This document shows positions 5,593 to 18,877 of a DNA stretch of 64,000 nt, one piece after another (within the stretch, counting starts at the first letter, position 1; every line of letters starts with the position of its first letter). A program made the position numbers and the translations under genes. The stretch is from contig OY762429.1 in NCBI GenBank assembly GCA_963665655.1, forward strand, positions 2,224,503 to 2,288,502, written 5' to 3'. This stretch comes from Terriglobia bacterium (GTDB lineage Bacteria; Acidobacteriota; Terriglobia; Versatilivoradales; Versatilivoraceae). Under the pieces are notes generated by a model. That model ran no database searches. It had not been told where the DNA came from and saw nothing but the letters and a program-made list of their open reading frames with translations.

Positions 5593-6026
5593 CCGGCGAA
5601 TTTCAACGTTCAAGGGCCTTGCCCAATAACGGCGCCAGGAGACTTGCAAGCAGGGAGTTAATCCCCCGTGCCAAAAACTCAATCCGACAGAACAGCAGGC
5701 GGATCGCTTCCCGTTGTCCGTCCGGAATCGGCGGGCCAGGAAGCCTATACTATCGAGGCATAAACGCCCAACGATGCCAATGGATGCAGACAGATGGCCG
5801 ACTGATTAACCATTCCTCGCAAAACCGTTCCTCGCAGCTGGACAAAGTTTGCTTCGTGCTGCTTTCGACGGCAGTTTAGGAATCGATTTTCCACTTGATC
5901 ATCTAACCACCCTCGCAAGAGCAAATACCTCGGTGGCCACTTCAGCGTCAGAAGATTTCGGTGGTCGTGGGAGGTAAAGTGAAATCTTCTTGTCTTTTGA
6001 AACATAGTCAAAGCCACTCTCATCAT

Positions 6027-7199
6027 TCAGACTGGCGAAGACAACTTTGCTAAGGTTTCTTCAATAAAACCGACGGCCTCTTCAACGTCCTCGTCGCTTG
6101 TGCCAAAGCCGAGACTGAAACGGATAGATGCCTCGGCATCGTCACTGTCCAAGCCAATGGCTCTGAGGACATGCGACGGTTCCGGGATTCCTGTAGTGCA
6201 CGCGGAACCTGTCGAGGCCGCGAGACGCGGCTGAAGCGCACCGAGAATATCGTGCGCAGAAAAGCCCGCAAATCGGACATTGGCGTTGCCGGGGTGACGG
6301 TGCTCGCCACGCGGGCCATTCACAGCAACGGGCCAAGCCAGATTGTTCAGCTTAGCGAGGAATGCATCGCGCCGACGACGCAATTGCGAGCGCTTTTCGT
6401 CGGCATCGCACTGAGTAAATAGATCCGCTGCGGCAGCCATTCCAACACAAAGCGGTACAGGAACAGTACCGGAACGCAATCCGTTCTGTTGGCCCCCACC
6501 GTATAACAGCGGCTCGATCTGATCTTCCAAGGCGCGCGATATGCAAATAATTCCGATTCCTTTCGGTCCGTACATTTTGTGAGACGATAGGCTCAAGATA
6601 TCCACGTATTGCAATATGGTGTCAAGGCGCATTGCAAGGGGCGCTTGCGCAGCATCGCAGTGATAAATCGTCCCCTGACGTCTTACTACGTCTGATACCA
6701 CTTTAATGTCCTGAACTGTCCCGATTTCGTTATTCACCACCATCACAGAAACCGCGAGGACATCTTCGTCCAGCATTTCTTCCAGGGTCGATAGTTCGAC
6801 GAATCCTTCGCCATCGACCGGTATTGTTTCAACTGTGAAACCGTATTGCTTTTCTAGGACTCTGCCAGCTTCCAGCACGCTTTTGTGTTCTACTGCACTC
6901 AACAAAATGCGGCGGCGCTTGCCACCAGCCGCGCGGCGTCCTAGGCCAAGTAACGCCAAGTTGTTCGACTCGGTTGCCCCTGAAGTAAAGATAACCTCAT
7001 CGGCATCGGCACCGATCAGCCGAGCGACGCGACCAGTGGCGTCCTCGACCGCACGCGAAGATTCCCATCCGAAGCAATGCTCCGACGAGTGCGAATTCCC
7101 GAACAAATTACTAAAATAAGGGATCATTTCGTCCAAAACATGTAGATTGACCGGTGTTGTAGCCTGATGGTCAAAATAAACGCTGTTTCTATTTTTCAT
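6027..7199 (-). CDS. sspA: Cysteine desulfurase (class V aminotransferase, IscS/NifS/DndA/SspA-like)
   Basis: 390 aa with the PLP-lysine motif SLSSHKMYGPKG, a C-terminal active-site Cys region (STGSACT) and an N-terminal YFDHQATTP. It is divergent from sspBCD inside the low-GC island. Confidence 0.8.
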   Translation of the reverse strand: MKNRNSVYFDHQATTPVNLHVLDEMIPYFSNLFGNSHSSEHCFGWESSRAVEDATGRVARLIGADADEVIFTSGATESNNLALLGLGRRAAGGKRRRILLSAVEHKSVLEAGRVLEKQYGFTVETIPVDGEGFVELSTLEEMLDEDVLAVSVMVVNNEIGTVQDIKVVSDVVRRQGTIYHCDAAQAPLAMRLDTILQYVDILSLSSHKMYGPKGIGIICISRALEDQIEPLLYGGGQQNGLRSGTVPVPLCVGMAAAADLFTQCDADEKRSQLRRRRDAFLAKLNNLAWPVAVNGPRGEHRHPGNANVRFAGFSAHDILGALQPRLAASTGSACTTGIPEPSHVLRAIGLDSDDAEASIRFSLGFGTSDEDVEEAVGFIEETLAKLSSPV

Positions 7200-7352
7200 T
7201 TCCTCTTTATGAAACTGAGTCTAAAATTCTTAAGGCTAGCGGGTTCGAAAGCTAAGTAGGATTAGTGGGGAGCAACTCCGGTCACTGTCGAACATAGCAC
7301 AGTTTGTCAGCTACAGTCGACCTGGAGGTATCATCCAGTAGCCGGAGTACGC

Positions 7353-8312
7353 ATGGCGCGCGGACCACTTTTTCAAGCAGGCTACAACCCTCAGTTTTCG
7401 GGCCATGAAACCTTTCCACTCCGCTACGGATGGCTGAAAAAGGCATTGGACCGCGTCGTAGAAACCGAACATCAAGCTGACAACCGAGTCACATGCTGGG
7501 GCGGAGACGCTATCGCACGTTTTGGCGTCGGTAAAAATATGGTGGCGTCTATGCGCCATTGGGCCAAGGCAGCCCGAGTAATCATTGAACCCGCAAAAAA
7601 TACGGTTCGGACCACAGCACTCGGCCGCCTACTGTTTGGACGGACGGGAGTCGACCCGTATATGGAGCACCCCGCAACGTTGTGGCTAATCCATTGGCAG
7701 TTGGCGGCCTACGAAGAGAAGACTACATGGTATTGGGCGTTCAACCACTATTCTGCTGTGACCTTCGACCGTGAAGCGGTGATCATAATGCTCAAACGTC
7801 TTGCTAAGGACCGAAATTGGCTGAGAGTTGCCGATACGACAATCAAGAACGATGTTGCGTGTTTCGTTCGCACATACGTCGCGTGGCAACCGTCCAGCAA
7901 GACTGGCCATGATGACGTGCTTGAGTCACCGCTCACAGAATTGGGGCTAATCAAGGCCATCGGCAAAAAGGACGGTTTTCGCTTTGTAAGAGGCCCCAAG
8001 ACGACATTGGGCGATGGTGTATTTACTTATGCCTTGGTCGACTTCTGGTCACGGTATGCACCAAACTCAGCCACATTGTCCTTCGAGGCCATCGCTCATG
8101 CGCCCGGCGGTCCGGGCCGCGTATTCCTTTTAGACGAAAACGATGTCGTCGACCGTCTTGCTGCACTTGATGAGGTTACAGGCGGTACGCTGAGATGGTC
8201 CGAGACTGCCGGTCTGAAGCAGGTTATTCGCACTACCGAAATGGAAGGGGGTTCTGCCCTGTCCTGGGTCTACTGCGATTTCAACACGCCTACCGACATG
8301 GAGCCAATGTGA
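7353..8312 (+). CDS. sspB: SspB-like DUF4007 protein (phosphorothioation nickase component)
   Basis: N-terminal FSGHETFPLRYGWLKK motif typical of DUF4007. It is immediately followed and overlapped by the large ATPase and the PAPS-reductase-like gene in the sspBCD order. Confidence 0.7.
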   Translation: MARGPLFQAGYNPQFSGHETFPLRYGWLKKALDRVVETEHQADNRVTCWGGDAIARFGVGKNMVASMRHWAKAARVIIEPAKNTVRTTALGRLLFGRTGVDPYMEHPATLWLIHWQLAAYEEKTTWYWAFNHYSAVTFDREAVIIMLKRLAKDRNWLRVADTTIKNDVACFVRTYVAWQPSSKTGHDDVLESPLTELGLIKAIGKKDGFRFVRGPKTTLGDGVFTYALVDFWSRYAPNSATLSFEAIAHAPGGPGRVFLLDENDVVDRLAALDEVTGGTLRWSETAGLKQVIRTTEMEGGSALSWVYCDFNTPTDMEPM

Positions 8313-11300
8313 TGTCATTGAACGACCGTGTTCGGATAGCCCGGCGCTTCCTTAGATCGATCCGCATCGATTCTGATCTTGGCCATGTGGCGGCCCTTGA
8401 AGGATTCGTATGTCCGCAGTCGTCCTCCAACATTCTTTTGACAATGGCACGCCACGTCTCCCAAACGGGACAGGGCGCATTCACTTGGACTGGCCCCTAC
8501 GGCAGTGGTAAATCAAGCCTTGTCGTCGCCCTAAGTGCTTTATTAAACGGCGATACAGGACTGCAGGACGAAGCAGCAAAGATCTTCGGCCAGGAGTTGA
8601 CGAGGACGATCAGGGACACTTTGCCGATTGGAACAAAGGGGTGGCGTATTCTTCCCGTCGTCGCACGACGCGACGATCCCGTCACTGTCATCGGAGAATC
8701 CGTAAGGCGGACAGCGCTCGTATCCCGTCGGCCGCGTGGCGGCTGGACCGAAAGCAACCTGATCGCCACACTGACCAAAATCGCTAGCGAAAATCCCGAG
8801 ACACACGGCGGGCTCGTTCTTTTCATCGATGAGCTAGGCAAATTCCTAGAGGCAGCCGCCCGCGACGGCTCCGATATCTACATTCTCCAGCAGCTCGCCG
8901 AAGCGTCGTCACGGAGTCAGGGGCGGTTTCTTGTCGTGGGTGTGTTACACCAAGCGTTCGAGGAATACGCCCATCGCCTTTCATACGAGATGCGAGACGA
9001 GTGGGCGAAGATCCAGGGCCGTTTCATCGACCTTATTGTCAATACAGTAGGCGAAGAACAGATCGACCTGATCTCACGCGCGATCGAAAGCGATCATCAC
9101 CCAAAGAAGCCTAGCACCCTAGCAGCCACCGTCGCGAGCTTCGCATGTCGGGATCGTGCATCTGATGCGGGGCGCATAGCCTCCATTCTGGAAACATGCT
9201 GGCCGCTGCACCCTGTCGTAGCATGCCTTCTTGGACCGATTTCGCGTCGGCGTTTCGGGCAGAACCAACGAAGTATATTCGCCTTCTTGAACTCATCTGA
9301 GCCTCACGGGTTTCGAGACTTTCTGTGTCACGCTAGGGAAGGTGAACTATACGGCCCGGACCGGCTTTGGGACTACCTTCGCGCCAACTTAGAGCCATCC
9401 ATTTTAGCTTCACCCGATGGTCACCGGTGGGCGTTGGCAGCGGAAGCGCTTGAACGCTGCGAGGCAATCGGCGCCGACGCCGTTCACATCCGGTTGCTCA
9501 AAACAATTTCCGTCATTGACCTGTTCAAGGAGCGTTCGGGACTCGTCGCGAATTCGGCCTTGCTAGGCAGCTGTTTCCCTGAAACCTCAGCCAATGGGCT
9601 TGAAAGGGCGCTTTCGCAACTAGGTACATGGTCGTTCACGATCTTCAAGAAATTCCTCAACGCCCACACCATCTTTGCAGGGAGCGACTTCAACATAGAC
9701 GAGGCGGTCCGCACCGCACTCGACGAGATCGACGAGTTTGATTTAAAGGCGCTCAAGTCGCTCGCCGGGCTGCACCCGATCCTCGCCAAACGCCACTACC
9801 ACGACACAGGTGCGCTCAGATGGTTTGACGTGAACATCGTCTCAGTCAGCAGCCTTGTCGATTTCGTCGCCAAACATGAACCGGAGAACGGCGTGATCGG
9901 CCAGTTCCTTTTGGCGATTCCAACGGAGGGAGAAAGCCGCGACTACGCCGAGGACGTATGCCGTAAGGCCACGCGCCATAGTGACGCATGGGACATCATT
10001 GTAGGGATATCGAAAAGTTTCTGGGCTATAGTTCCACTAGCGCGAGAATTGTTTGCACTGGACAGCGTCAGCAACAATCACCCAGGGCTTGCGGGAGATT
10101 CCGTCGCGCGACGGGAAGTCTCCGCACGTCTCGTTACTCTACAAACATTGCTGGAAGCGGAACTGCGCAAGGCATTTGACAATGCGCTATGGTTCCAAAA
10201 AGAACACAGGCCCAAGCGGTTACGGCAGGCCGATCTGAACGGTATAGCTTCCGAGCTAGCGGATCGTCGTTTCGGTCAATCGCCGCGCCTACATAGCGAA
10301 TTGCTAAACCGCCAGAAACCATCAAGCAACGCAATCGCAGCTCAGAACGCCCTGTTACGGTGCATGGTAATGAATGAGGGTGCGCCGCGGCTTGGGATCG
10401 TGGGGTTTCCAGCCGAGGGTGGTCTGTTTGCTTCCATTCTGGAAGCCACAGGCCTGTACGTTACGGAGGAAGCAATTGGGCGTTACGTTTCACCGATAAC
10501 AAGCACTGATCCTTGCAACTTAGCCGCGATCTGGAAGAAGGCGATTAACCACGTCAAGGAATGTGCCAACCGCACGGTAACCTTCTCTGAGTTGTTCGAG
10601 CAGTGGTCTAAGCCGCCCTTCGGCGTGAAACAGGGCATGATGCCAGTCCTTGCGGTCGCCTTCGTGTTATCGCATCGCGACAAAATTGCGGTGTATCGTG
10701 ACGGTATTTTCAGGGCGAAATTCGACGACGTGGATGTCGACTATCTGGCCAAAGACCCGACGTTTGTCCAAGTGCGCTGGATGGACCTTAGCTATGTTGC
10801 GCGTCGACTATTGTCGGGACTGGCTCAAGTTGTCCGCGATCTTGACACGGCGAACCAGCTTATTCACCTTGAGCCCATCGATGTCGGACGTGGCCTTGTC
10901 GCAGTGTACGAGCGGCTTCCGAAATGGACCAAGAGGACGATGCGGCTATCTTCGAATGCCTTAAGAATACGCGAACTGTTCAAGCGCGCCCACGATCCAA
11001 ACCAGTTCCTGTTTAACGATCTTCCGGAAACACTCGGCGAGGACGTTTCGTTTGGAGACGAAAACGATCTGCGCCTTGTTATCGAAAGCGTTCGTGAGGG
11101 GCTGCATGAGCTAGTTGGAGCGTACACGTCAATGCTGCACCGCTTGCGGGAAATCATGTTGGCAGAGTTGCAGGTTCCTAACATTTCGCCCCGGTCTTTA
11201 CAGGAGTTGCGCGTCCGCGCTGAGAATATAAAACAGCTCTCCGGTGATTTTCGACTCGAGGCTTTCGTGGGCAGACTATCGCAGTTCGATGGTTCCGACG

Positions 11301-11698
11301 AGAGTGTGGAGGGTATAGCCAGTCTTGCCGCAAATAAGCCGGCCGGAGAATGGTTCGATCCCGACCTTGATCGGTGCGCCATAGAGCTCGCCGAAATGGC
11401 CCAAAAATTCCTACGTGCCGAGACGTATGCTCGCGTTAAAGGCCGTCCTGACAAACGGCAGGCGATAGCCGTTGTGATCGCCATGGACGGCCGACCTCAA
11501 CCGCTGTTGGAGGAATTCAACATCGCGGATACGGATCGCACTGCCGTCAAAGATCTAGTTGAGCGTGTCGCTAACACCATCGGACAGACCGCCACCAGCC
11601 AACGCGGAATAATTCTGGCAGCGCTAGCGGAACTCACGACGCGCTATATTCAGACAGCGTCGACTGGGCACAATAAGAAAGAAAGAGCAGCCTCATGA
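8312..11698 (+). CDS. sspC: SspC-like large P-loop ATPase
   Basis: Walker [17 protein letters not shown] and a Walker B-like LVLFIDELGKF. Start chosen at the ATG overlapping the sspB stop (TGATG); the ORF is open from 8195, so the start is uncertain. The 3-prime end overlaps sspD by 4 nt. Confidence 0.7.
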   Translation: MSLNDRVRIARRFLRSIRIDSDLGHVAALEGFVCPQSSSNILLTMARHVSQTGQGAFTWTGPYGSGKSSLVVALSALLNGDTGLQDEAAKIFGQELTRTIRDTLPIGTKGWRILPVVARRDDPVTVIGESVRRTALVSRRPRGGWTESNLIATLTKIASENPETHGGLVLFIDELGKFLEAAARDGSDIYILQQLAEASSRSQGRFLVVGVLHQAFEEYAHRLSYEMRDEWAKIQGRFIDLIVNTVGEEQIDLISRAIESDHHPKKPSTLAATVASFACRDRASDAGRIASILETCWPLHPVVACLLGPISRRRFGQNQRSIFAFLNSSEPHGFRDFLCHAREGELYGPDRLWDYLRANLEPSILASPDGHRWALAAEALERCEAIGADAVHIRLLKTISVIDLFKERSGLVANSALLGSCFPETSANGLERALSQLGTWSFTIFKKFLNAHTIFAGSDFNIDEAVRTALDEIDEFDLKALKSLAGLHPILAKRHYHDTGALRWFDVNIVSVSSLVDFVAKHEPENGVIGQFLLAIPTEGESRDYAEDVCRKATRHSDAWDIIVGISKSFWAIVPLARELFALDSVSNNHPGLAGDSVARREVSARLVTLQTLLEAELRKAFDNALWFQKEHRPKRLRQADLNGIASELADRRFGQSPRLHSELLNRQKPSSNAIAAQNALLRCMVMNEGAPRLGIVGFPAEGGLFASILEATGLYVTEEAIGRYVSPITSTDPCNLAAIWKKAINHVKECANRTVTFSELFEQWSKPPFGVKQGMMPVLAVAFVLSHRDKIAVYRDGIFRAKFDDVDVDYLAKDPTFVQVRWMDLSYVARRLLSGLAQVVRDLDTANQLIHLEPIDVGRGLVAVYERLPKWTKRTMRLSSNALRIRELFKRAHDPNQFLFNDLPETLGEDVSFGDENDLRLVIESVREGLHELVGAYTSMLHRLREIMLAELQVPNISPRSLQELRVRAENIKQLSGDFRLEAFVGRLSQFDGSDESVEGIASLAANKPAGEWFDPDLDRCAIELAEMAQKFLRAETYARVKGRPDKRQAIAVVIAMDGRPQPLLEEFNIADTDRTAVKDLVERVANTIGQTATSQRGIILAALAELTTRYIQTASTGHNKKERAAS

Positions 11699-12534
11699 CC
11701 AAACCTGCTGTGAAGCATGTGCTCGGGCTGTCCGGTGGGCGAGATAGCGCGGCGCTAGCCGTCTACATGCGGCAAAACCATCCCGCAATCGATATCCAGT
11801 TTTTTTTTACGGACACAGGCAAGGAACTGCCCGAAGTGTATGAATTTCTAGGGCGACTTGAAGGTTTTCTTGGTAAACCGATCTTGCGGCTGAATCCTGA
11901 CCGTGACTTCGATTTCTGGCTTAAGCAATACAACCACTTTCTGCCATCGCCGCAAACGCGCTGGTGCACACGGCAGCTTAAACTGCGCCCGTTTGAGCAC
12001 TGGCTTCGCCCATTGCTTGCCAATGGAACGATGATCTACAGTTATGTTGCTATTCGCAGTGACGAGCAGTTCCGTGAAGGGTACTCCTCTAAACATAGCA
12101 ATTTGGTTGTCAAACTGCCGTTCAAGCAGGCCGGGATCGATAAAGCTGGTGTGCTTGAAATCCTAGATGGAGCCGGGCTTGGCCTACCGAATTATTATTC
12201 TTGGAGAACGCGTAGCGGCTGCACTTTTTGTTTTTTCCAGCAGAAGATCGAATGGGTTCGGCTCAAACAGCAGCACCCGGAGGCGTTCGAGGAAGCCAAG
12301 GCGTACGAAAAAAACGCCGTTGAAAACGGTTCACCTTTTACATGGAGCCAAGGTGAATCTCTCCAGCAGCTTGAAAAGCCGGAGAGGATCGTGCAGATTA
12401 GGGCGGATCATGAACGACGTTTGGCCCGCATGCGCTCCAAAGCCAAGCCAAACCCGCTTAGGCCGGATAGCGAGCCTCTAGATATTGACGACTTGTACGG
12501 AAAAGCCAAAGTCTGCCTCGCATGCCACAAGTAG
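11695..12534 (+). CDS. sspD: SspD/DndC-family PAPS-reductase-like ATP pyrophosphatase (PP-loop)
   Basis: PP-loop motif LGLSGGRDSAALAV at the N-terminus, the PAPS reductase fold pattern, cysteine-containing C-terminal motifs (CTFC; CLACHK) and ATGA overlap with sspC. Confidence 0.8.
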   Translation: MTKPAVKHVLGLSGGRDSAALAVYMRQNHPAIDIQFFFTDTGKELPEVYEFLGRLEGFLGKPILRLNPDRDFDFWLKQYNHFLPSPQTRWCTRQLKLRPFEHWLRPLLANGTMIYSYVAIRSDEQFREGYSSKHSNLVVKLPFKQAGIDKAGVLEILDGAGLGLPNYYSWRTRSGCTFCFFQQKIEWVRLKQQHPEAFEEAKAYEKNAVENGSPFTWSQGESLQQLEKPERIVQIRADHERRLARMRSKAKPNPLRPDSEPLDIDDLYGKAKVCLACHK

Positions 12535-12552
12535 CTAAAATATTGACTGAAA

Positions 12553-14028
12553 TCAACTAAGAGCGTGTAGGGACATCAGCCTTGGGTAACGCTTAGCGAT
12601 ATCGGGATGCCGTCGCAGTCGATCTTCAAGATCCCGAGCTTCCCACCATTCGGCTTGAAAGACCTTCTTCCTTCTCATACCGTCCAAATGATCCACAAGT
12701 GAAGAACTGATTCTCGGATGTGCGATCAGGAGAAATCCGTCCGCCTGATGGCGCTCAAGCGTGTCTCTGATGTCCTGAACATCGCTTTTGCCAATCGTCC
12801 GTTGTCGGGATTTCACCTGCGCTATGAAGCGCAAAACTCTTGTTCCTTTGAAACAGACTGCGGCACCACCCTTAGACGTGGAGTCTTTTGCTCCTGTCGA
12901 ATGGGGAGCGGGAACTTTCCTGTCAATCAGAATATCACGTCCGCTATCTCTGTCGTTGACCGTCCCAACCGGTTTCGCTTGAAGGACTCCTGGTTCCCTC
13001 CGAACCAAATCAACACAAAGGTCTTCAAAGTCGCCTGGAGACATTGGTGTCTTCCAGTCAATAATCGAATCCGCAAAAAATACGCTATTTTCCCCGCTTC
13101 GTCGCTCAAGTAGGTTTTTTCTTTCCCGTTCATAAACGACGCGTCCACATTCGCCGCGAATTGCAACAATTGTCTTATCTCCGATGAAGAGACAGTGACT
13201 ATCTAGTGGCATCACAACTACGTTCTCACACCCATCGGCAGTGAGTGAAAACAGTTTGTGCGCCTTCTTGGTTAAAGCGAATGGAATTGCATTCGGTATA
13301 CCATTTGCGAGGATCGCCAATGATTTTTCGCCCTTTACCATCTCGGGTGAATAGGGGCTCAAAGCGCCTCTCAGAAGAGCTAAACGGTTCTTCGGCATCC
13401 GAATGATTGTCACGCCGCGATCATGTGACGCGAAATACATCCAAACCGGAAATGTTCTTTTGCTGATCGTCACATCTTTCGGATTTCTCAGGTACCTTGT
13501 GACAGGAACCACCCATACCGGTTCTTCGGTTTTGTGTACCACGGTCAAATCTGGACGATTTTGCAATCGGCCTTGATCCCACTGGAACACATCGCTTAAG
13601 AGGTGAAAGGCGAATGCGGTCCATGCATTCATGGATTTTCTTGCGGCCTCGAATGTGTCATCCGAGATGTTCCAAGGGCATTGCTCAAATATCACGTAAC
13701 GTGCGCCGATCTCACCTGGAACAAAGCCGTGAGGCTCATCAATTAGCCGCACAGAACCAAGCCCAAATGCGCGTAGCACTCCACCCCAAATCAGCGACAA
13801 GACGTCATGCACGTCGGTCCGGTCGCCATCGAATTGAGCGCCAGATGTGGTGACTACACCCCAAAGCAGTAGCCGTTTCTCACAGTCTTGACCAGCCGGC
13901 AAGTCAAGCATACGAAAGGGTTCGTGTGTTAGACCTGAACATTCAAATACGGGAGGTTTGTATAGTGTCTCTTGACCGCCAACTGACAACGCGGAGGCCG
14001 CCCTTGCAAATATGCTGTCAGCTTCCAT
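12553..14028 (-). CDS. Hypothetical protein with a C-terminal Mrr-like restriction endonuclease (PD-(D/E)xK) domain
   Basis: The C-terminal segment RFIAQVKSRQRTIGKSDVQDI...ADGFLLIAHPRISS resembles the Mrr_cat core. Last gene of the minus-strand operon, abutting the upstream gene. Confidence 0.5.
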   Translation of the reverse strand: MEADSIFARAASALSVGGQETLYKPPVFECSGLTHEPFRMLDLPAGQDCEKRLLLWGVVTTSGAQFDGDRTDVHDVLSLIWGGVLRAFGLGSVRLIDEPHGFVPGEIGARYVIFEQCPWNISDDTFEAARKSMNAWTAFAFHLLSDVFQWDQGRLQNRPDLTVVHKTEEPVWVVPVTRYLRNPKDVTISKRTFPVWMYFASHDRGVTIIRMPKNRLALLRGALSPYSPEMVKGEKSLAILANGIPNAIPFALTKKAHKLFSLTADGCENVVVMPLDSHCLFIGDKTIVAIRGECGRVVYERERKNLLERRSGENSVFFADSIIDWKTPMSPGDFEDLCVDLVRREPGVLQAKPVGTVNDRDSGRDILIDRKVPAPHSTGAKDSTSKGGAAVCFKGTRVLRFIAQVKSRQRTIGKSDVQDIRDTLERHQADGFLLIAHPRISSSLVDHLDGMRRKKVFQAEWWEARDLEDRLRRHPDIAKRYPRLMSLHALS

Positions 14029-15930
14029 CTATTCTCCCTCTGCTGAGAGGATATCGGTGATTTTCATGACGAAAGGCGCCTTGCGGTAATTACTCTTTGC
14101 AGAAATACCTTCTTCGACTCCCTCATTTCGCACGAGGTAAAGGTACGTCCGATTGTCTTTACCCTTTTCCGCATTCCATTTTCCATTCTGTCGCGGAAGT
14201 TCCATCAATCCCCGTTCAAATCGCTCGAAGAAGTCAAGATCGGTCTTCATGGCTGAGAGGCTTTCCTTCGCCGACGTGCGTACATCCTCAAGCGGATAAC
14301 TCTGCATAGTTTCCCTCAACGCATCGCACACGTCTTCTCCAAGCACCAAATGGTCGACTCTCCTTCCCTGTGCGTCTCGACCCACGAAGCAGCTCGCGGT
14401 TTCCATCGATTCAACCGGAACTGAGCGCGTAGTCGCATCAGGGGAAACTACATATAAGGCAATTGAAACCGGAAACGTCGCGGGAGGTTTTGCAGGCTGA
14501 CCAATACGCCCCATATCAGCCAGCAACTTCTGCTGAAGTTCCGTGGCAAAGATCTCACGAATTCGACCTACGCGTACGTAACTGCTACTGTGCTGGAGCC
14601 CCTCGCAAAGTGTTGCAAGAGGGATTGTTTGTCGTTTTTTAAGATGCCACCTGATCCAATGCCTTGACCCATCTTGCGATTTGAAGATCGGCGTCTTGGT
14701 TACCGTAGCTCCATAAGACCAATCTTTCGCCACAAGGGGCATTAGAGTACCAGGCAGAACGAACACATTTTCTGTCTCAGCGCGCGCTAAATCGCACGCG
14801 GGTGTTGCAACGAGAAATACCTCACTTGTCAATTTCCCAGTTTCTGTGTTCTTGCGTCGCAAAACGTCCCCGTATTGAATTGTTGGCACGTCCTGACCGA
14901 CTGAGAGTTCCAACCTTCGGACGTGTTGAAAGATCATGCGATGCACAAGGTCTTGGAGATCAGATGAACCTGCCAAATGCGGAGCAGGGTACTGGCCCAA
15001 CTCAATCTTGTTTAATTCTTGAGCCGCGGATATTGTTCCAACTTGGGCTTCTATCTCGTGCTGTAAGACACGATCTGAAACATCCAAGAGATACTCGCCG
15101 AGCTTTTGCCCTTCGAAATCCAGCAAAAGTGTCCGAATCTGTGCCAAATCAGATAAATCTAGGCGGCGTAGAATTCTTACAAAGTTGTCTCGTGCCTGCT
15201 CCAAACCGTCATTCCACGATTGGACGAATGCAGCAACCCGTTTGGCATCTTCATAATGGTTTGCCAGCCGGGTCAGCAAAGTTTCGAGCCTGCCATCCTT
15301 CGTCAAATCAGCCTTGCTTGCGATCCGAAATGTTGAACCGAGAAGTCCCGCCTTATCACGAAAATCATTGCGCTTCTCCCAGAGCCGAGTGCTCCTTGAC
15401 ATCAATACTACTAGTGGCGGCTTGTGCGCACGATTCGTAACGAGTTGCGAGACACGGGAGACTGCACGGTCCATATCCTGTTCAGACTGATGAAAGCCGA
15501 GGAACAAATCGATGAAGATTAGGTCCGCCTCTCTCGCTCTCTCATCGAACTCCTTCCCCATCGTTGAACAGGTCAAGCCGAAACCTTCAAGGGCCACGAT
15601 AAGTGCCTCTAAGATTTTCCGCTCTGCCTCCTGGGTACTCTCGTAGTCTCTGAATAAATGCTCACGCGCTTCAGTTGGCAGCTTGTCCCGGTATTCCCAC
15701 AAGATACTGATAAACTCCTGAGATCCGATCAGATCGCCCATAGACGTGCGTTCATATCCCGGAAACAGGTTCGAAAGTAACGCGTTTCCGGAAGCGCCCA
15801 GGTCATCAAAGAAATTCGACCAATCGCCCTCGGTGAGTTCGTCAGGACGCGGTATATCGTCGAAGACGTCATCGATAACAACAGCGTTTTTGACAACCCT
15901 CTTTTTCAACAGCTCGCGCAGTTTCTTCAT
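14029..15930 (-). CDS. Hypothetical protein with receiver-domain-like N-terminal motifs
   Basis: N-terminal VVIDDVFDD, a later IFIDLFLG and PLVVLMSRS resemble REC beta1/beta3/beta4 elements, but the spacing is non-canonical. 4-nt overlap with the upstream histidine-kinase-like gene. The C-terminal 400 aa has no recognisable domain. Confidence 0.4.
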   Translation of the reverse strand: MKKLRELLKKRVVKNAVVIDDVFDDIPRPDELTEGDWSNFFDDLGASGNALLSNLFPGYERTSMGDLIGSQEFISILWEYRDKLPTEAREHLFRDYESTQEAERKILEALIVALEGFGLTCSTMGKEFDERAREADLIFIDLFLGFHQSEQDMDRAVSRVSQLVTNRAHKPPLVVLMSRSTRLWEKRNDFRDKAGLLGSTFRIASKADLTKDGRLETLLTRLANHYEDAKRVAAFVQSWNDGLEQARDNFVRILRRLDLSDLAQIRTLLLDFEGQKLGEYLLDVSDRVLQHEIEAQVGTISAAQELNKIELGQYPAPHLAGSSDLQDLVHRMIFQHVRRLELSVGQDVPTIQYGDVLRRKNTETGKLTSEVFLVATPACDLARAETENVFVLPGTLMPLVAKDWSYGATVTKTPIFKSQDGSRHWIRWHLKKRQTIPLATLCEGLQHSSSYVRVGRIREIFATELQQKLLADMGRIGQPAKPPATFPVSIALYVVSPDATTRSVPVESMETASCFVGRDAQGRRVDHLVLGEDVCDALRETMQSYPLEDVRTSAKESLSAMKTDLDFFERFERGLMELPRQNGKWNAEKGKDNRTYLYLVRNEGVEEGISAKSNYRKAPFVMKITDILSAEGE

Positions 15931-18356
15931 GAGACAACGACCTCGTCGGGCAGTTGCAGAATGAAACGATGGAGGCGGCCTGTTTCGGGATTGAACTCGT
16001 CCTGCAGTGTCAGGCTTCCGCCGTGGTATTCGGCACAGTCGCGGGCGATGTAGAGACCGAGACCCCTGCGTTTGGATTTTTCTTTCAGCGAAAAGAACGC
16101 CCGAAAGACCTTCTCTCGGTTCTCCTTCGCGACACCACGGCCATTATCTTCATAGTTGATCGTGAGGGGATCATCTTCCATCGCAATGGTGATAAACGGC
16201 TGGAAGCCCGGCTGGTGCTGTTGGCGAAGGTCCAGCCAATAAAGCGAGTTCGATATCAAGTTTTCGATTATCTGCACGATCATTCCCTTGACGGCGCGAA
16301 TACGAACAGCACGCTCAGGCACGATAACCTTCAGCTTCACATCATGACGTGCAAATTGCAGCTCGTGACCGCTCAAAATATCTCCAATCAGGCTACCCAA
16401 ATTGAACGTTTCCTTTCGTTGACGGCCCGAAACACTAAGCGGATCAAGAACACGAAGGCGCTTACTTACCGACTTCATCTCCGACCGCAACGAATTCAGC
16501 AATCCGTCTATCTGGGCCGGAACGTCTTCCTCACGTAAGGCCTCAAGTGCAGCAAGCGCATTTTCCGTCGATCGGGCTAGTTCATGGGCCACGACTTCGA
16601 CTAGCAGCCCAACACCCGCCATCTGCATCATCTGCCGATTCTCGCTCTCGACCTCGGCAATCCGCCTTTCAGCACGAGTGAAGAATTCTTTTATTTCAAA
16701 GAAGGTGTGCTGCAATTCATCAACAATACTCGCCGAGACTGGAGCTATGTGCCTTATTTTCTTTAGTGCCACGCTTGCCCTTTTTTCGAGGCTAGACACA
16801 TCCGTCTTGGCTTCCGTCATATCGATGGGCTGGCCTTTGTAACGCCGTTGCACGTCCTTCAAAAACTCACGGAGGTGGTATTGAATGGCAAATTGCAGCA
16901 GGCCAATGAACGCTTGCTGTTCGGGGCAAACACGCAAGCCTTCGCGGTTTGTCTGGTCAGTGAGTGGCGGGTTGCCTAGCCGTGAAATCTTAACACGGCC
17001 GCAGAATTGTGCTTTGTTGAGGAGGTACCCCATACTACCGAGCGCACGCCGGTCCAAGCCTAGCCAATCGTCGTCGTCGTCTCCGTAAGGCAAAATCCGG
17101 AATCCATCACGGAATAGTAGGATCCCGGACCAGCGCTTTTGCAGTTCTCGCACAACGTTCCGATTTCCAATGCTGTCGATGGCTCCCAAGCGCCGCCGAT
17201 TAAACCAATACGCCTCGAATTCGAATTCACCCAAATCGTCTAGTGCTGACGGCGGGATTTCTCTCGATGTGCCGGTAATCGCCCCTTCAAGGTCGGGCGG
17301 GGTGAATACCCGTTTTTCAACTTCACGCGGGTGATCGAATCCCAGATTCAAAGCTTCGTAGCTGCATTCCAGAGTTGGGCCGGAATCATTGCAGACATAA
17401 CGTCCCTTTACCGCTGCATGTCGATGCGCCAAGAGAAGATGATCCATGCGAGCTATAGAAACGCGCGCACCATTCCAAAATAAAGCAATTCGGGGTCTCC
17501 GCTTGGCATCAGCGAACGGATCGGTAAGCCGCGCAAAGTCATGCTCACCTAAGTATTTGACTCGCTCATATGTCCAGTCCGCTCCTAGAGCACCGATGAT
17601 CAACCGTGTGCCGCTCCAGTCTGGCTCCGGCTTCGCCGAACCGCACTCAGGTATGATGTCGATCTCATCAATCATCGCTTCTAGGTCGCCAAAAGCAGAC
17701 CAGTCAATTTTGAGCAAATTTAGGTATTTGTCCTGTTTCTCTGCCGTTTCGACCGTAAGCTTGTCGCCTAGGCGCATGGCGGAGAGTCGTCCGATCCCCT
17801 TTTCACCTAGATAGGGTGCGCGCTGTTTTTCTGCGTTAGGACTCGCGAGCGCGGCGTCTATCACGCGTTTCCGAGAAGCTGTTCCCACTACGAGATAGTT
17901 ATCGATCAAATCCTGATGCGACATCCCCGTGCCCCTGTCGGACACGATAATTCGATTTTCAACGGTGTACGCATTGTCAAGGGCCTGAACAAGAGATGCT
18001 GGATCTTCGGCTCTGTCGATCGCCCTGCGGAAACGATTCAGTGAGCTCTGTGGGGCAGACGGATTGAGAACATGCTCAACATTCACCTTCAGACCGTTGA
18101 TATCAACCGATCCGTCAGTTGCCCTCTGGCGGATCCTCAAATAGTCATTCCGCCGTAGGACGATTTCAAAATGAATTTCCACACCGTTCGTAGACTTAGC
18201 GTCAAACGCGTTCTTGATCAGCTCATAAAATGCAATAATATCCGAACTGATAAGTTCAGCCCCGAGTTCCAGAATTGTCCGGGCGCAAATCTTGAACAAC
18301 CTGTTTACCTCCCTTTGTTGTTCGGCTTGCTGGTCAACGGTCAGGCGATGATGCAA
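15927..18356 (-). CDS. Cytoplasmic GHKL ATPase - histidine kinase fusion protein
   Basis: N-terminal GHKL domain (N-box FYELIKNAFDA, G1 VSDRGTGMS, G2 GEKGIGRLS). Central H-box VVAHELARSTENALAAL. C-terminal HK catalytic domain (N-box ENLISNSLYW, G1 EDNGRGV, G2 GLGLYIARDCAEYHGGSL). No TM segments. Confidence 0.65.
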   Translation of the reverse strand: MHHRLTVDQQAEQQREVNRLFKICARTILELGAELISSDIIAFYELIKNAFDAKSTNGVEIHFEIVLRRNDYLRIRQRATDGSVDINGLKVNVEHVLNPSAPQSSLNRFRRAIDRAEDPASLVQALDNAYTVENRIIVSDRGTGMSHQDLIDNYLVVGTASRKRVIDAALASPNAEKQRAPYLGEKGIGRLSAMRLGDKLTVETAEKQDKYLNLLKIDWSAFGDLEAMIDEIDIIPECGSAKPEPDWSGTRLIIGALGADWTYERVKYLGEHDFARLTDPFADAKRRPRIALFWNGARVSIARMDHLLLAHRHAAVKGRYVCNDSGPTLECSYEALNLGFDHPREVEKRVFTPPDLEGAITGTSREIPPSALDDLGEFEFEAYWFNRRRLGAIDSIGNRNVVRELQKRWSGILLFRDGFRILPYGDDDDDWLGLDRRALGSMGYLLNKAQFCGRVKISRLGNPPLTDQTNREGLRVCPEQQAFIGLLQFAIQYHLREFLKDVQRRYKGQPIDMTEAKTDVSSLEKRASVALKKIRHIAPVSASIVDELQHTFFEIKEFFTRAERRIAEVESENRQMMQMAGVGLLVEVVAHELARSTENALAALEALREEDVPAQIDGLLNSLRSEMKSVSKRLRVLDPLSVSGRQRKETFNLGSLIGDILSGHELQFARHDVKLKVIVPERAVRIRAVKGMIVQIIENLISNSLYWLDLRQQHQPGFQPFITIAMEDDPLTINYEDNGRGVAKENREKVFRAFFSLKEKSKRRGLGLYIARDCAEYHGGSLTLQDEFNPETGRLHRFILQLPDEVVVS

Positions 18357-18412
18357 AGAAACGCGCCCGACTCCGATTTCCCCCAGCTACCAATCTGATC
18401 ATCCGTGCCGTC

Positions 18413-18877
18413 CTATGCTACCTTTGCATTCCTCAAAAGCGCGTCAATACAATCCGAGAGGTTCCAGATCGGCTCCGCATCACCGTCATTGAGCATTTCA
18501 ATGATCTTGGGTAGCCCAGCTACGGCAAGTCCGCTGGCGAGCACCATCATCCTTCTCGGTTCCGATACGATCTGCACATCGCCAGTCTTTCCGATCGCGA
18601 TCAGCATAAGGGTATGCACGCGCCACGGATCGCTGCCGAATATCGATCCGTCGATGATCTTCTTCGTTTTGAATTTAGAGGGGTCTCTAGGTTCCAGACC
18701 AAGCCGCGCTGCGACGCAGACAGACAGGAACCAGAGATCGACCATGCGCGGAAACGGACTCTGATCGATGATCGCATCGGCGCTCCTTTGGCAGTAACGA
18801 GTAAACGCCTCGTGGAATTCCTCTGGGACGTTAATGTCGATCGCCTGAAACGGATTGAAATAACGGTCCGCCATCAC
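18413..18877 (-). CDS. Hypothetical protein (154 aa)
   Basis: Tightly packed between the SMC-like ATPase (4-nt overlap) and the HK-like gene, with island-like low GC. No recognisable motif. Confidence 0.45.
   Translation of the reverse strand: MMADRYFNPFQAIDINVPEEFHEAFTRYCQRSADAIIDQSPFPRMVDLWFLSVCVAARLGLEPRDPSKFKTKKIIDGSIFGSDPWRVHTLMLIAIGKTGDVQIVSEPRRMMVLASGLAVAGLPKIIEMLNDGDAEPIWNLSDCIDALLRNAKVA

What the first reader, a model, noticed from the sequence alone, without database searches (positions are those of the whole stretch)
6027..12534. Ssp-type DNA phosphorothioation gene set (sspA divergent from sspBCD)
A DUF4007 protein (FSGHETFPLRYGWLKK), a ~1130-aa P-loop ATPase (GPYGSGKSS) and a PP-loop PAPS-reductase-like protein (SGGRDS) are translationally coupled in the sspB-sspC-sspD order. 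They sit next to a divergent IscS/DndA-like cysteine desulfurase with an SSHK PLP lysine. This is the signature of SspABCD, which installs single-strand phosphorothioate modifications. Finding it on a low-GC island suggests horizontal acquisition into a high-GC host.
Basis: partly seen in the sequence, partly recalled or inferred. Interest (0 to 1): 0.7.

Follow-up and report, generated by a model that had tools for sequence, protein, structure and literature searches.

The report
Ssp DNA-sulfur system with unusual partners
Instead of the known Ssp restriction partners it sits beside a PbeABCD module and an undescribed histidine-kinase/receiver gene pair that is found next to ssp genes in nearly every genome examined.

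Summary
Observation confirmed. Window 6027-12534 holds sspA (-) divergent from overlapping sspB-sspC-sspD (+). All four are full length, carry the quoted motifs, and hit the SspA/B/C/D models at E 1e-107 to 0.

The set lies on a ~19-kb low-GC island (0.48-0.56 against 0.62-0.67) between rimI-like and PEMT/tsaB genes of a probable Acidobacteriota MAG. SspC is 60-80% identical to copies in many phyla.

SspABCD itself is a known kind.
- **No known Ssp partner.** SspE and SspFGH are absent.
- **PbeABCD.** One minus-strand array converging on sspD ends in pbeA-B-C-D (23542-18413). This module was previously described with Dnd or methylases, not Ssp. It neighbours sspBCD in 28 of 54 related loci.
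- **A three-gene cassette (18299-12553).** It encodes a GHKL+histidine-kinase protein, a 633-aa protein with a receiver domain and a MazF/CcdB-fold domain, and an Mrr-like nuclease.

The kinase/receiver pair has no Pfam or PADLOC family, though the receiver protein has about 955 clusters at 50% identity. Ssp genes lie beside it in 23 of 24 informative independently seeded loci, down to 23% identity.

I read the pair as an Ssp-dedicated two-component module, probably a phosphorylation-gated effector. That function is inferred, not shown.

The parts
6027..7199 (-). sspA: IscS/DndA-like cysteine desulfurase, 390 aa. PLP lysine in SSHK (205-208); catalytic Cys in GSACT (331-335).
   Evidence: PADLOC SspA 5.8e-122 and DndA 7.2e-119. 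Pfam Aminotran_5 1.2e-78. NCBIfam DndA 3.7e-105, below the curated cut-off.
7200..7352 (.). 153-nt divergent intergenic region between sspA and sspB. Presumed promoter region.
   Evidence: Read directly. The sigma-70 consensus scan found nothing here and was at chance level overall.
7353..8312 (+). sspB: DUF4007 protein, 319 aa. DNA-recognition/nicking subunit.
   Evidence: Pfam DUF4007 2.2e-86. PADLOC SspB 2e-107. PDB SspB 6juf/6lb9 8e-33.
8309..11698 (+). sspC: ~1129-aa P-loop ATPase. Walker A GPYGSGKSS (61), Walker B LFIDELGK (170). Start GTG 8309 or ATG 8312, overlapping the sspB stop.
   Evidence: PADLOC SspC E = 0 (1321 bits, model 1-1043 of 1045). BrxC-PglY is only 1.1e-103. Junction read.
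11695..12534 (+). sspD: PP-loop PAPS-reductase-like protein, 279 aa. SGGRDS at 13-18; CxxC at 176 and at 274. ATGA overlap with sspC.
   Evidence: PADLOC SspD 5.9e-135. Pfam PAPS_reduct 1.6e-6. DndC only 1e-4.
12553..14028 (-). Mrr-like nuclease, 491 aa. C-terminal Mrr_cat with invariant D361, D365, Q404-V-K406; the N-terminal ~320 aa are unknown. Last gene of the minus-strand array; its stop lies 18 nt from the sspD stop.
   Evidence: Pfam Mrr_cat 2.8e-5 (24.7 bits, cut-off 21). Five-sequence alignment. Present only in a subset of loci: window, L013, L025, L054/55, L058, L068, L074.
14029..15930 (-). 633-aa protein ('u633'). N-terminal receiver (REC) domain with a helical insert: D20, D21, D141 and S178 invariant, K206 nearly invariant. 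Then a helical linker, a MazF/CcdB-fold domain (~355-470, invariant TPACDL at 376) and an unassigned C-terminal domain.
15927..18299 (-). 790-aa GHKL + histidine kinase. N-terminal Bergerat ATPase (ELIKNAFDA 26, DRGTGM 121, GEKGIGRLS 165). H-box AHELARS (571). C-terminal kinase ATPase (N 679, G1 718, G2 746). ATGA overlap with the REC gene.
   Evidence: Pfam HATPase_c_3 3.3e-14, HEF_HK 1.4e-4, HATPase_c 3.2e-18. 357 of 790 positions invariant in 10 orthologues. The TTG start at 18299 is supported by a GGGAGG SD and by a 100%-identical 790-aa database entry.
18413..18877 (-). pbeD candidate, 154 aa. Small protein overlapping the pbeC stop.
   Evidence: Position and size match published PbeD (152 aa). 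Conserved cluster of 18 in related loci. No Pfam or PADLOC hit, and the profile against PDB found nothing.
18874..21030 (-). pbeC: CxC-type ABC ATPase, 718 aa. Walker A ESGKTT (37); C353-I-C355 Zn-hook motif.
   Evidence: PADLOC PbeC 7.9e-51. NCBIfam DndD 5.8e-28, below cut-off. Walker A G/K and the CxC cysteines are invariant in 24 sequences.
21042..21272 (-). pbeB candidate, 76 aa. Small acidic protein between pbeA and pbeC.
   Evidence: Position and size as published PbeB (66 aa). Cluster of 11 homologues in the same position. No family model.
21290..23542 (-). pbeA: HKD (PLD) nuclease fused to an SF2 helicase, up to 750 aa (true start uncertain; models match from residue ~62). H180-x-K182, G197-S-x-N200, ATGSGKT (338), DEAH (446).
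   Evidence: PADLOC PbeA 3.6e-191. NCBIfam TIGR04095 'DNA phosphorothioation system restriction enzyme' 2.2e-107, below cut-off. Pfam ResIII, DEAD, Helicase_C, PLDc_2. Motifs invariant in 15 sequences.
5700..24846 (.). Approximate extent of the low-GC defence island, between a rimI-like GNAT gene (5059-5682, -) and PEMT-like/tsaB genes (24997-26212, -).
   Evidence: GC profile. Pfam on the flanking genes. A 94-nt, 80%-identical copy of the tsaB 3' end lies at 24847-24940, at the island edge. No tRNA and no integrase found.

Best explanation
**What it is.** Window 6027-12534 is a complete, apparently functional SspABCD DNA-phosphorothioation module on a ~19-kb horizontally acquired defence island.

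**How the modification works (steps inferred from the characterised Ssp and Dnd systems).**
1. SspA, a PLP cysteine desulfurase, takes sulfur from cysteine.
2. SspD, a PP-loop ATP-pyrophosphatase-type enzyme with two CxxC pairs, carries and activates the sulfur.
3. SspB (DUF4007) recognises and nicks the target site, and the large SspC ATPase drives or regulates the reaction.
4. One non-bridging backbone oxygen is replaced by sulfur on one strand at a short motif. The motif here is unknown.

**How the mark is probably used.** Neither SspE nor SspFGH is present. Two co-oriented modules converge on sspD.
- **PbeABCD.** It comprises an HKD-nuclease/SF2-helicase, a small protein, a CxC ABC ATPase and a small PbeD. 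I infer that it restricts DNA lacking the mark, as shown for Dnd-Pbe in archaea.
- **A translationally coupled kinase/receiver pair.** One gene encodes a GHKL+histidine kinase. The other encodes a receiver protein with a MazF/CcdB-fold domain. Here they are followed by an Mrr-like nuclease. The pair's genomic linkage to sspBCD is shown here. I infer that it is a His-Asp phosphorelay in which the kinase senses DNA or PT status or infection, phosphorylates D141 of the receiver, and so releases the toxin-fold and/or nuclease effector.
For: **SspABCD identity.** Searches give full-length model matches with intact motifs. One search shows the overlapping genes.

**Island and transfer.**

**Known partners absent here, present in sister loci.** SspE and SspFGH are absent from the window. 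They are recognised in sister loci with the same tools, so the absence is not a sensitivity problem.

**Pbe module.**
- PbeA scores 3.6e-191 and PbeC 7.9e-51, with HKD, SF2, Walker A and CxC motifs invariant.
- pbeC or pbeA lies within 10 kb of sspBCD in 28 of 54 loci seeded with SspC.
- Arrangements vary: directly abutting sspD (L035, L038, L053), or on one strand as sspBCD>pbeABCD>HK>u633 with a divergent Ssp (L063, L065).

**Kinase/receiver pair.**
- ATGA coupling.
- Kinase H, N, G1 and G2 boxes plus a second GHKL domain.
- Receiver hallmark residues: D20, D21, D141 and S178 invariant and K206 nearly invariant in 32 sequences.
- Of the loci found by searching for the 633-aa protein itself, 23 of 24 informative ones carry sspD or sspBCD within ~13 kb.
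- This covers at least four gene orders, loci with no Pbe (L054, L056, L061, L073, L075-L081; L072 keeps only a pbeD remnant), and homologues at only 23-37% identity on plasmids of Agrobacterium, Rhizorhabdus, Ensifer and Devosia.
- SspE occupies the same slot between sspD and pbeD in sister loci, and is never found together with the pair (0 of 54).
Against: - No biochemical evidence exists for PT in this organism, and the motif is unknown.
- Defence genes cluster for reasons other than function. Pbe also occurs without any PT genes, and 26 of 54 related Ssp loci lack it.
- PbeD could not be linked to DndE by sequence. The NCBIfam scores for PbeA, DndD and DndA are below their curated cut-offs.
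- The pair co-occurs with several different restriction modules (Pbe, SspFGH, a GHKL+PLD pair). That fits a regulator of modification as well as an effector.
- The neighbourhood samples are modest (54 plus about 27 loci) and mostly MAGs.
- The novelty claim rests on an open-access literature library only.
Confidence: 0.75

Rival explanations
1. SspABCD here is an orphan, epigenetic modification system. PbeABCD and the kinase/receiver/Mrr cassette are independent defence systems that merely share a defence-island hotspot.
For: In the published survey, 84% of sspBCD loci have no known partner, and solitary PT systems have non-defence roles. Pbe occurs without PT genes in more than half of published cases. 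26 of 54 related Ssp loci lack Pbe. The slot after sspD holds many different cassettes: SspE, SspFGH, GHKL+PLD, kinase+DUF262, DndB-like.
Against: The kinase/receiver pair is next to ssp genes in 23 of 24 independently seeded loci. This holds across several gene orders, on plasmids, and at 23-37% identity. Co-directional sspBCD>pbeABCD>HK>u633 arrays exist with a divergent Ssp (L063, L065). Hotspot co-location alone does not predict such family-wide linkage.
Confidence: 0.12
2. The kinase/receiver pair is not an effector. It regulates or senses for the Ssp modification machinery (a DndB-like role), tuning PT levels or coupling modification to cell state. Restriction is left to Pbe, SspFGH or others.
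For: The pair is tied to sspBCD but is indifferent to which restriction module is present: Pbe, SspFGH, GHKL+PLD, or none recognised. Two-component systems are classically regulatory.
Against: The receiver protein has no recognisable DNA-binding output. It carries a MazF/CcdB-fold domain instead. A variable third gene follows it: an Mrr-like nuclease, or in L073 a STAND/TPR protein (L020 has an unexamined 977-aa ORF in that slot). This is typical of effector cassettes. It occupies the SspE slot and is never found with SspE (0 of 54; expected ~2, so weak). In L056, L080 and L081 the only other candidate is an uncharacterised GHKL protein.
Confidence: 0.25
3. The locus is a Dnd-type or BREX type 4 phosphorothioation system rather than Ssp.
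For: SspA scores almost equally as DndA. SspC is homologous to BrxC (1.1e-103), and SspD gives a weak BrxP hit (1.4e-10). PbeC and PbeD are relatives of DndD and DndE according to Rakesh et al. 2024.
Against: The SspB, SspC and SspD models win by 30 to more than 100 orders of magnitude. No PglZ, BrxL, DndB or DndE hit occurs among the island ORFs. DUF4007 is a separate gene, not fused to the PAPS reductase as is frequent in BREX type 4. DndC matches only at 1e-3 to 1e-4.
Confidence: 0.02

Closest known systems
SspABCD-SspE (Vibrio cyclitrophicus FF75, E. coli 3234/A, Streptomyces; Xiong et al. 2020)
   Same: The same four modification genes, with contiguous sspBCD and overlapping reading frames. 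SspB matches the solved SspB structure. Sister loci at 60-80% identity do carry SspE immediately after sspD.
   Different: No SspE (DUF262-DUF1524) in this island. The slot after sspD holds the Mrr-like, receiver and kinase genes instead. sspA is linked and divergent here, whereas some model systems use a distant iscS. The PT motif is unknown.
SspABCD-SspFGH (Vibrio anguillarum FF-93; Wang et al. 2021, PMC8092258)
   Same: An SspBCD modification module paired with a multi-gene restriction module that acts on non-PT DNA. That paper explicitly predicts further, unidentified restriction partners for the 84% of sspBCD loci without SspE or SspFGH.
   Different: No SspF, G or H homologues here. In other genomes the kinase/receiver pair sits between sspFGH and sspBCD (L054, L075, L078), so it is additional to SspFGH, not a variant of it.
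DndCDEA-PbeABCD (Haloterrigena/Natrinema; Xiong et al. 2019, PMC6459918), equal to the CxC-ABC/DndE-anchored systems of Rakesh, Aravind & Krishnan 2024 (PMC10853773)
   Same: The same four-gene order and sizes: an HKD+SF2 PbeA, a ~70-aa PbeB, a CxC ABC ATPase PbeC and a ~150-aa PbeD. Strong PADLOC PbeA and PbeC matches. Placed next to a PT-modification module.
   Different: The adjacent modification module is Ssp (single-strand type, DUF4007 plus SspC), not DndCDEA or a cytosine methylase. I found no paper describing an Ssp-Pbe pairing. PbeD shows no detectable sequence link to DndE here.
Classical two-component systems and response-regulator-fused effectors
   Same: A histidine kinase with H, N, G1 and G2 boxes, translationally coupled to a protein with a receiver domain that has all the hallmark residues.
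   Different: The kinase is cytoplasmic (no membrane segments noticed) and carries an extra N-terminal GHKL/MORC-like ATPase. The receiver has a ~100-residue helical insert, and its output is a MazF/CcdB-fold domain rather than an HTH or enzymatic domain with a known family. The pair is defence-island-borne and Ssp-linked.
MazF/Kid/CcdB toxins
   Different: Sequence identity is only 11-19%. No antitoxin gene is present. The domain is embedded in a 633-aa multidomain protein. Catalytic or gyrase-binding residues are not established.

Membership tests
SspABCD (single-strand DNA phosphorothioation) | SspB: DUF4007 DNA-binding/nicking protein | tested here: met
   Pfam PF13182 2.2e-86 (290 bits, cut-off 27). 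PADLOC SspB 2e-107. PDB SspB 6juf/6lb9 8e-33.
SspABCD (single-strand DNA phosphorothioation) | SspC: ~1100-aa BrxC-related P-loop ATPase next to sspB | tested here: met
   PADLOC SspC E = 0, model covered 1-1043 of 1045. Walker A and B present.
SspABCD (single-strand DNA phosphorothioation) | SspD: PP-loop PAPS-reductase-like sulfur-transfer enzyme | tested here: met
   PADLOC SspD 5.9e-135 over the full length. SGGRDS and two CxxC pairs.
SspABCD (single-strand DNA phosphorothioation) | SspA/IscS cysteine desulfurase with PLP Lys and catalytic Cys | tested here: met
   PADLOC SspA 5.8e-122. SSHK at 205, GSACT at 331.
SspABCD (single-strand DNA phosphorothioation) | Single-stranded PT at a short motif (e.g. 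5'-CpsCA-3') in genomic DNA | not testable with these tools
   Needs LC-MS/MS or PT-specific sequencing.
Ssp defence system (SspBCDE / SspBCD-FGH) | Adjacent SspE or SspFGH restriction component | tested here: not met
   No SspE, F, G or H hit for any island ORF even at E <= 10. The same models hit sister loci at E = 0 to 1e-161.
PbeABCD / CxC-ABC-anchored system | PbeA: HKD nuclease fused to an SF2 helicase | tested here: met
   PADLOC PbeA 3.6e-191. HxK and GSxN plus helicase motifs I, II, III and VI invariant.
PbeABCD / CxC-ABC-anchored system | [quoted passage not shown] | tested here: met
   PADLOC PbeC 7.9e-51. C353xC355 invariant in 24 sequences.
PbeABCD / CxC-ABC-anchored system | Small PbeB between pbeA and pbeC, and small PbeD (DndE cognate) after pbeC | tested here: inconclusive
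   ORFs of 76 and 154 aa sit in the right places and are conserved in sister loci. No family model matches, and the PbeD profile finds no DndE in PDB or Pfam.
PbeABCD / CxC-ABC-anchored system | Published pairing with DndCDEA or a cytosine methylase | tested here: not met
   No dndC/D/E modification genes and no methylase in the island. The neighbour is SspABCD.
BREX type 4 | PglZ and BrxL present; PAPS reductase (BrxP) usually fused to DUF4007 | tested here: not met
   No PglZ or BrxL hit among island ORFs. sspB and sspD are separate genes. BrxP scores only 1.4e-10.
DndABCDE | DndC, DndD, DndE (and DndB) as the modification set | tested here: not met
   DndC 1e-3 to 1e-4 only. No DndB or DndE. 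The DndD-like protein is PbeC, where PbeC models score better.
Two-component phosphorelay (HK + REC) | Kinase H-box His and N/G1/G2 ATP-binding boxes; receiver acidic pair, phospho-Asp, Ser/Thr and Lys | tested here: met
Two-component phosphorelay (HK + REC) | Actual His-to-Asp phosphotransfer | not testable with these tools
   Needs an in vitro phosphotransfer assay.
MazF/CcdB toxin superfamily | SH3-like barrel fold of MazF/Kid/CcdB | tested here: met
MazF/CcdB toxin superfamily | Catalytic (MazF) or gyrase-binding (CcdB) residues; cognate antitoxin | tested here: inconclusive
   No residue-level structural alignment was available. No Arg-Pro MazF motif is evident by eye before the TPACDL strand. 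No antitoxin gene is present.
Mrr-like type IV restriction endonuclease | Mrr_cat domain with a D...(Q/E)xK active site | tested here: met
   Pfam Mrr_cat 24.7 bits (cut-off 21). D361, D365, Q404 and K406 invariant in 5 sequences.

The most novel reading that the evidence does not exclude
The GHKL-histidine kinase and the REC-MazF/CcdB-fold protein (with a variable third gene, here an Mrr-like nuclease) form a previously unrecognised, Ssp-dedicated effector class. This would be a His-Asp phosphorelay that reads phosphorothioate or foreign-DNA status and switches on a toxin or nuclease. It would account for part of the ~84% of sspBCD loci that have no known restriction partner. Together with PbeABCD it would make this locus a three-layer PT-based defence island. 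[quoted passage not shown] Homology to that system was not tested.
Probability: 0.35. Interest if true: 0.8.

Novelty: new variant of a known kind. Interest (0 to 1): 0.58.

Why it matters
SspABCD itself is textbook by now. The open question in the field is what reads the phosphorothioate mark in the large majority of ssp loci that lack SspE and SspFGH (Wang et al. 2021).

This locus and its relatives give two concrete, testable answers:
- **A recurrent Ssp-Pbe pairing.** It may also explain some 'solitary' PbeAC systems reported in 2019, before Ssp was known.
- **A large, unannotated two-gene family.** The receiver protein has about 955 clusters at 50% identity. Its only consistent neighbour is sspBCD, and its domain make-up points to phosphorylation-gated toxicity.

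If confirmed, this would be a rare case of classical two-component signalling wired into an epigenetic anti-phage system. The cassette occurs in cultured, tractable hosts: Rhizorhabdus wittichii RW1 pSWIT01 (Swit_5323/5324), Agrobacterium, Ensifer and Methylocaldum. Experiments are therefore feasible.

Tried and rejected
- **Exact-sequence look-ups.** SspD, the 633-aa protein and TsaB were not on record. The source contig could not be retrieved. The host was inferred only from the MutS 90% cluster, which is named Acidobacteriota.
- **tRNA scan and Rfam.** Nothing in the whole window, so there is no tRNA-type integration site.
- **Promoter/terminator consensus scan of the island.** Counts were at or below the shuffled expectation, so it was uninformative.
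- **Repeat search for att-like island ends.** It found only the 94-nt tsaB-end duplicate at the right edge. There was no matching left-end repeat and no integrase.
- **PbeD profile against PDB, and Pfam at E <= 1.** No DndE link.
- **PADLOC at E <= 10 for the kinase, receiver, Mrr-like, PbeD, 237-aa and 93-aa ORFs.** No meaningful defence-family hit, apart from a weak PDC-S02 hit on the Mrr domain and a REase_II hit on the GHKL domain.
- **Dnd and BREX type 4 readings.** Considered and rejected on model scores and missing signature genes.
- **SspFGH identity for the three-gene cassette.** Considered and rejected: no hits here, and true SspFGH co-occurs with the cassette elsewhere.
- **Taxonomy for distant family members via cluster look-ups.** No names were returned.
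- **Link to the A. baumannii GC2 'two-component system'.** It could not be tested. The papers give no identifiers, and no searchable collection holds those chromosomes.
- **Two key papers not held.** Xiong et al. 2020 and Krishnan et al. 2020.

Full report
**1. The observation**

The ORF map shows a 390-aa gene on the minus strand (6027-7199). A 153-nt gap separates it from three plus-strand genes: 7353-8312 (319 aa), one ending at 11698, and 11695-12534 (279 aa).

- FSGHETFPLRYGWLKK at residue 15 of the 319-aa protein.
- GPYGSGKSS at residue 61 of the large ATPase, followed by a Walker B LFIDELGK.
- SGGRDS at residue 13 of the 279-aa protein.
- SSHK at residue 205 of the desulfurase, which also has the catalytic-cysteine motif GSACT at 331.

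The junctions read GTGATG for sspB/sspC and ATGA for sspC/sspD, so translational coupling is plausible. The only correction concerns the mechanical ORF for the ATPase. It starts upstream at 8195 (1167 aa), but the real start is 8309/8312, giving about 1129 aa.

**2. Identity of the four genes**

| Gene | Best matches |
|---|---|
| SspB | Pfam DUF4007 2.2e-86; PADLOC SspB 2e-107; crystallised SspB (6juf/6lb9) 8e-33 |
| SspC | PADLOC SspC E = 0 (1321 bits, end to end); BrxC only 1e-103 |
| SspD | PADLOC SspD 5.9e-135; BrxP 1.4e-10; DndC 1e-4 |
| SspA | PADLOC SspA 5.8e-122 (DndA nearly as good, as expected for these close desulfurases) |

No island ORF hits PglZ, BrxL, DndB or DndE. The set is therefore Ssp, not Dnd and not BREX type 4. 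In BREX type 4, DUF4007 is usually fused to the PAPS reductase and PglZ and BrxL are present.

**3. The island and its origin**

GC falls from 0.60-0.69 to 0.49-0.56 between about 5.7 and 24.9 kb. Gene by gene, the island is 0.48-0.555, against 0.62-0.67 for the flanking genes.

- On the left is a GNAT (rimI-like) gene.
- On the right are a PEMT-like gene and tsaB, then mutS.
- A 94-nt, 80%-identical copy of the tsaB 3' end lies exactly at the right-hand GC step (24847-24940 against 25528-25621).
- No tRNA, integrase or matching left repeat was found.

MutS falls in a 90%-identity cluster named Acidobacteriota. A scan of one genome per species with SspC returned 53 loci at 60-80% identity. They come from Gamma-, Alpha- and Betaproteobacteria (including Nitrococcus mobilis), Binatia, Nitrospirales, Spirochaetia, Latescibacterota, Terriglobia and others. 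That distribution makes sense only with horizontal transfer.

**4.

Eighteen nucleotides after the sspD stop, a seven-gene minus-strand array ends. Read 5' to 3' it runs as follows.

- **pbeA (23542-21290).** PADLOC PbeA 3.6e-191; TIGR04095 'DNA phosphorothioation system restriction enzyme' 2e-107; PLD plus SF2 helicase.
- **A 76-aa ORF (21272-21042).**
- **pbeC (21030-18874).** PADLOC PbeC 8e-51; CxC motif.
- **A 154-aa ORF (18877-18413).**
- **A 790-aa protein (18299-15927), after a 113-nt gap.** It has an N-terminal GHKL ATPase and a C-terminal histidine kinase.
- **A 633-aa protein (15930-14029, ATGA overlap).** It has no family hit in any library.
- **A 491-aa protein (14028-12553).** It has a C-terminal Mrr-type nuclease domain.

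The first four genes reproduce the published PbeABCD layout. That layout is an HKD-helicase, a ~66-aa protein, an ABC ATPase later re-annotated as CxC-type, and a ~152-aa protein.

PbeA keeps HxK and GSxN and helicase motifs I, II, III and VI across 15 homologues. PbeC keeps Walker A and CxC across 24. I could not link PbeD to DndE by sequence.

No ORF hits SspE or SspF/G/H.

**5. Is the neighbourhood conserved? Loci seeded with SspC**

I mapped the window's proteins onto the 53 SspC-seeded loci and clustered all ORFs.

- Essentially all loci keep sspA(-)/sspBCD(+).
- Downstream of sspD there is a slot with alternative contents, identified with PADLOC:

| Content after sspD | Loci |
|---|---|
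| SspE | 10 |
| SspFGH | 6-7 |
| MzaB-like GHKL plus PLD pair | 12 |
| Ser/Thr kinase plus DUF262 pair | 3-5 |
| DndB-like pair | 4-5 |
| The window's kinase/633-aa pair | 11 |

- pbeC or pbeA is present in 28 of 54 loci, usually just beyond that slot.
- In L035, L038 and L053 the pbe genes abut sspD directly.
- SspE and the kinase pair never co-occur. This is 0 of 54 where about 2 are expected, so it is only suggestive.
- The Mrr-like gene is present in only a few loci.

**6. Is the kinase/633-aa pair tied to Ssp? Loci seeded with the 633-aa protein**

The independent test was to search for the 633-aa protein itself. It has 731 homologues in the 90%-clustered database, none with a Pfam domain or a name other than 'hypothetical'. 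It has 955 clusters at 50% identity (744 at E <= 1e-10).

Contexts came from three sources:
- Exact-protein look-ups.
- A metagenome scan.
- tblastn against plasmids, which reached 23-37% identity.

Of 24 loci with enough flank, 23 carry sspD or sspBCD within about 13 kb. The exception, L074, has a truncated kinase.

The arrangements differ:
- Convergent with sspD, as in the window.
- sspFGH>HK>633>Mrr<sspDCB (Methylocaldum, L054).
- Co-directional sspBCD>HK>633 (L056, L073).
- Co-directional sspABCD>(pbeD remnant)>HK>633 (L072).
- sspBCD>pbeABCD>HK>633 with a divergent Ssp (L063, L065).
- HK>633>XRE>sspABCD (Rhizorhabdus wittichii RW1 pSWIT01, Swit_5323/5324, L079).
- HK>633<sspDCBA (Ensifer, L080).
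- Next to SspFGH on Agrobacterium and Rhizorhabdus plasmids (L075-L078).

The pair therefore follows Ssp, not Pbe and not SspFGH. In Pbe-less loci a further ~810-aa GHKL protein often accompanies it (L042, L056, L073, L080, L081).

**7. What the pair looks like**

*The kinase.* It has two Bergerat ATPase domains.
- An N-terminal GHKL/MORC-like domain, with ELIKNAFDA, DRGTGM and GEKGIGRLS. It also resembles the ATPase part of BbrUII/HgiDII restriction enzymes (1.7e-13).
- A C-terminal kinase core, with an H-box (AHELARS, His572) and N, G1 and G2 boxes.
- 357 of 790 positions are invariant in ten orthologues.
- A 100%-identical 790-aa database entry supports the TTG start at 18299.

*The 633-aa protein.* It was modelled with AlphaFold2 from a 32-sequence alignment (pLDDT 76).
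- D20, D21, D141 and S178 are invariant and K206 is nearly invariant. These are the acidic pair, phospho-acceptor, Ser/Thr and Lys of a working receiver.
- Foldseek also put E. coli MazF on top, but at a weak E-value of 0.016.
- The last ~150 residues have no convincing match.

*The Mrr-like protein.* It keeps D361, D365 and Q404-x-K406.

**8. Most likely mechanism**

*Shown.* Gene content, motifs, folds and genomic linkage.

*Inferred from the characterised Ssp, Dnd and Pbe systems.* SspA mobilises sulfur. SspD carries and activates it. SspB and SspC select and open the site. A single-strand PT mark is written at an unknown motif. PbeABCD then blocks replication of, or cleaves, DNA lacking the mark.

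*Inferred from anatomy.* The kinase senses DNA or PT status or infection, perhaps through its DNA-clamp-like GHKL domain. It phosphorylates D141 of the receiver. This releases the MazF/CcdB-fold domain, and where present the Mrr-like nuclease, giving growth arrest or nucleic-acid damage.

The main rival for the pair is a regulatory role over modification, similar to DndB. The pair's indifference to which restriction module is present fits that reading. The lack of a DNA-binding output, the toxin-like fold, the variable third gene and the use of the SspE slot argue for an effector. My estimates are about 0.85 that the pair is functionally tied to Ssp, and about 0.35-0.4 that it is a PT-dependent effector.

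**9. Comparison with the literature**

Papers and reviews up to December 2025 list only SspBCD-E and SspBCD-FGH as Ssp defence systems. They list Pbe only with DndCDEA or methylases.
- Wang et al. 2021 found no partner for 84% of sspBCD loci and proposed that other partners exist.
- Xiong et al. 2019 found 58% of PbeAC without dndCD. Some of these may be Ssp-linked, which is my inference.
- No paper mentions the kinase/receiver pair. The only hint is a sentence on A. baumannii global clone 2. [quoted passage not shown] I could not test homology.
- The library is open-access only, and two key papers were not held. 'Not described' therefore means 'not found'.

**10. Verdict**

The finding as written is correct, and on its own it is ordinary: a new member of a known system. 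The locus as a whole is a new variant. It is SspABCD without SspE or SspFGH, joined to PbeABCD and to an unannotated, Ssp-linked two-component cassette.

Scores:
- Interest: 0.58. This is driven by the testable answer to 'what reads the PT mark in most ssp loci', not by SspABCD itself.
- Confidence in SspABCD identity: about 0.97.
- Confidence in the composite explanation: 0.75.

Noticed in passing
window 24847-24940 and 25528-25621: A 94-nt direct repeat at 80% identity. The second copy is the 3' end of tsaB. The first lies exactly at the right-hand GC step of the island. The two copies bracket only the PEMT-like gene (24997-25503). It may be a scar of insertion or recombination at the tsaB end. 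No integrase and no left-end partner were found.
   Followed up: partly
window 23800-24513 (-): A 237-aa ORF at the far end of the island (GC 0.49). It has no Pfam or PADLOC hit and no homologue in any of the 53 related loci.
   Followed up: partly
window 5745-6026 (-): A 93-aa ORF that abuts the sspA stop, between sspA and the rimI-like gene. It has no family hit and no homologue in related loci. It may be spurious or a remnant.
   Followed up: partly
L002, L005, L006, L010, L012, L018, L027, L032, L033, L040, L051, L052 (and L061), downstream of sspD: A recurrent pair lies beside sspBCD in 12 of 54 related loci: a ~630-aa GHKL ATPase (PADLOC MzaB-like, 1.8e-15) and a ~315-aa PLD-family protein (DrmC-like, 1.3e-6). 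This is another candidate, apparently undescribed, Ssp partner module.
   Followed up: partly
L042:18573-21005, L056:1-2237, L073:15028-17484, L080:4544-6961, L081:12176-14596: An ~810-aa protein with GHKL-like motifs and no PADLOC hit. It recurs next to the kinase/receiver pair, specifically in loci that lack Pbe.
   Followed up: partly
L003, L048, L049 (also L031); L012, L032, L034, L039, L021: Other cassettes occupy the slot after sspD: a Ser/Thr kinase (mad6/PD-T4-6-like) with a DUF262/NsnA-like protein, and a small protein with a DndB-like (DGQHR) protein. The position after sspD behaves as a swap site for effectors.
   Followed up: partly
L073:12054-14987; L020, the 977-aa ORF between sspD and the 633-aa gene: In L073 the third gene after the receiver protein is a ~977-aa AAA_16/TPR (STAND-like) protein instead of the Mrr-like nuclease. 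L020 has a 977-aa ORF in the equivalent slot, but I did not examine it or compare the two. The third position of the cassette appears to be variable.
   Followed up: no
L072:7047-7580: A pbeD homologue (76% identical) survives alone between sspD and the kinase gene, with only a 6% fragment of pbeA beside it. This looks like a decayed Pbe module in an otherwise co-directional sspABCD>HK>633 array.
   Followed up: no
window 49563-50513 (-) and 44750-46945 (-): Two further low-GC patches in the window (0.52-0.58). One is a 316-aa DUF4268 protein next to uvrA (50797-53328). The other is a 731-aa sulfatase-like protein. Both may be other small acquired segments.
   Followed up: partly
window 26424-29090 (-), 5121-5879 (+), 25313-26164 (+) and similar: Long ORFs lie antisense to real genes such as mutS in the high-GC flanks. 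They are the usual high-GC artefacts, not genes.
   Followed up: no
literature: PMC12421847 (mBio 2025): [quoted passage not shown] Whether that system is the kinase/receiver family found here was not testable with the available collections.
   Followed up: partly
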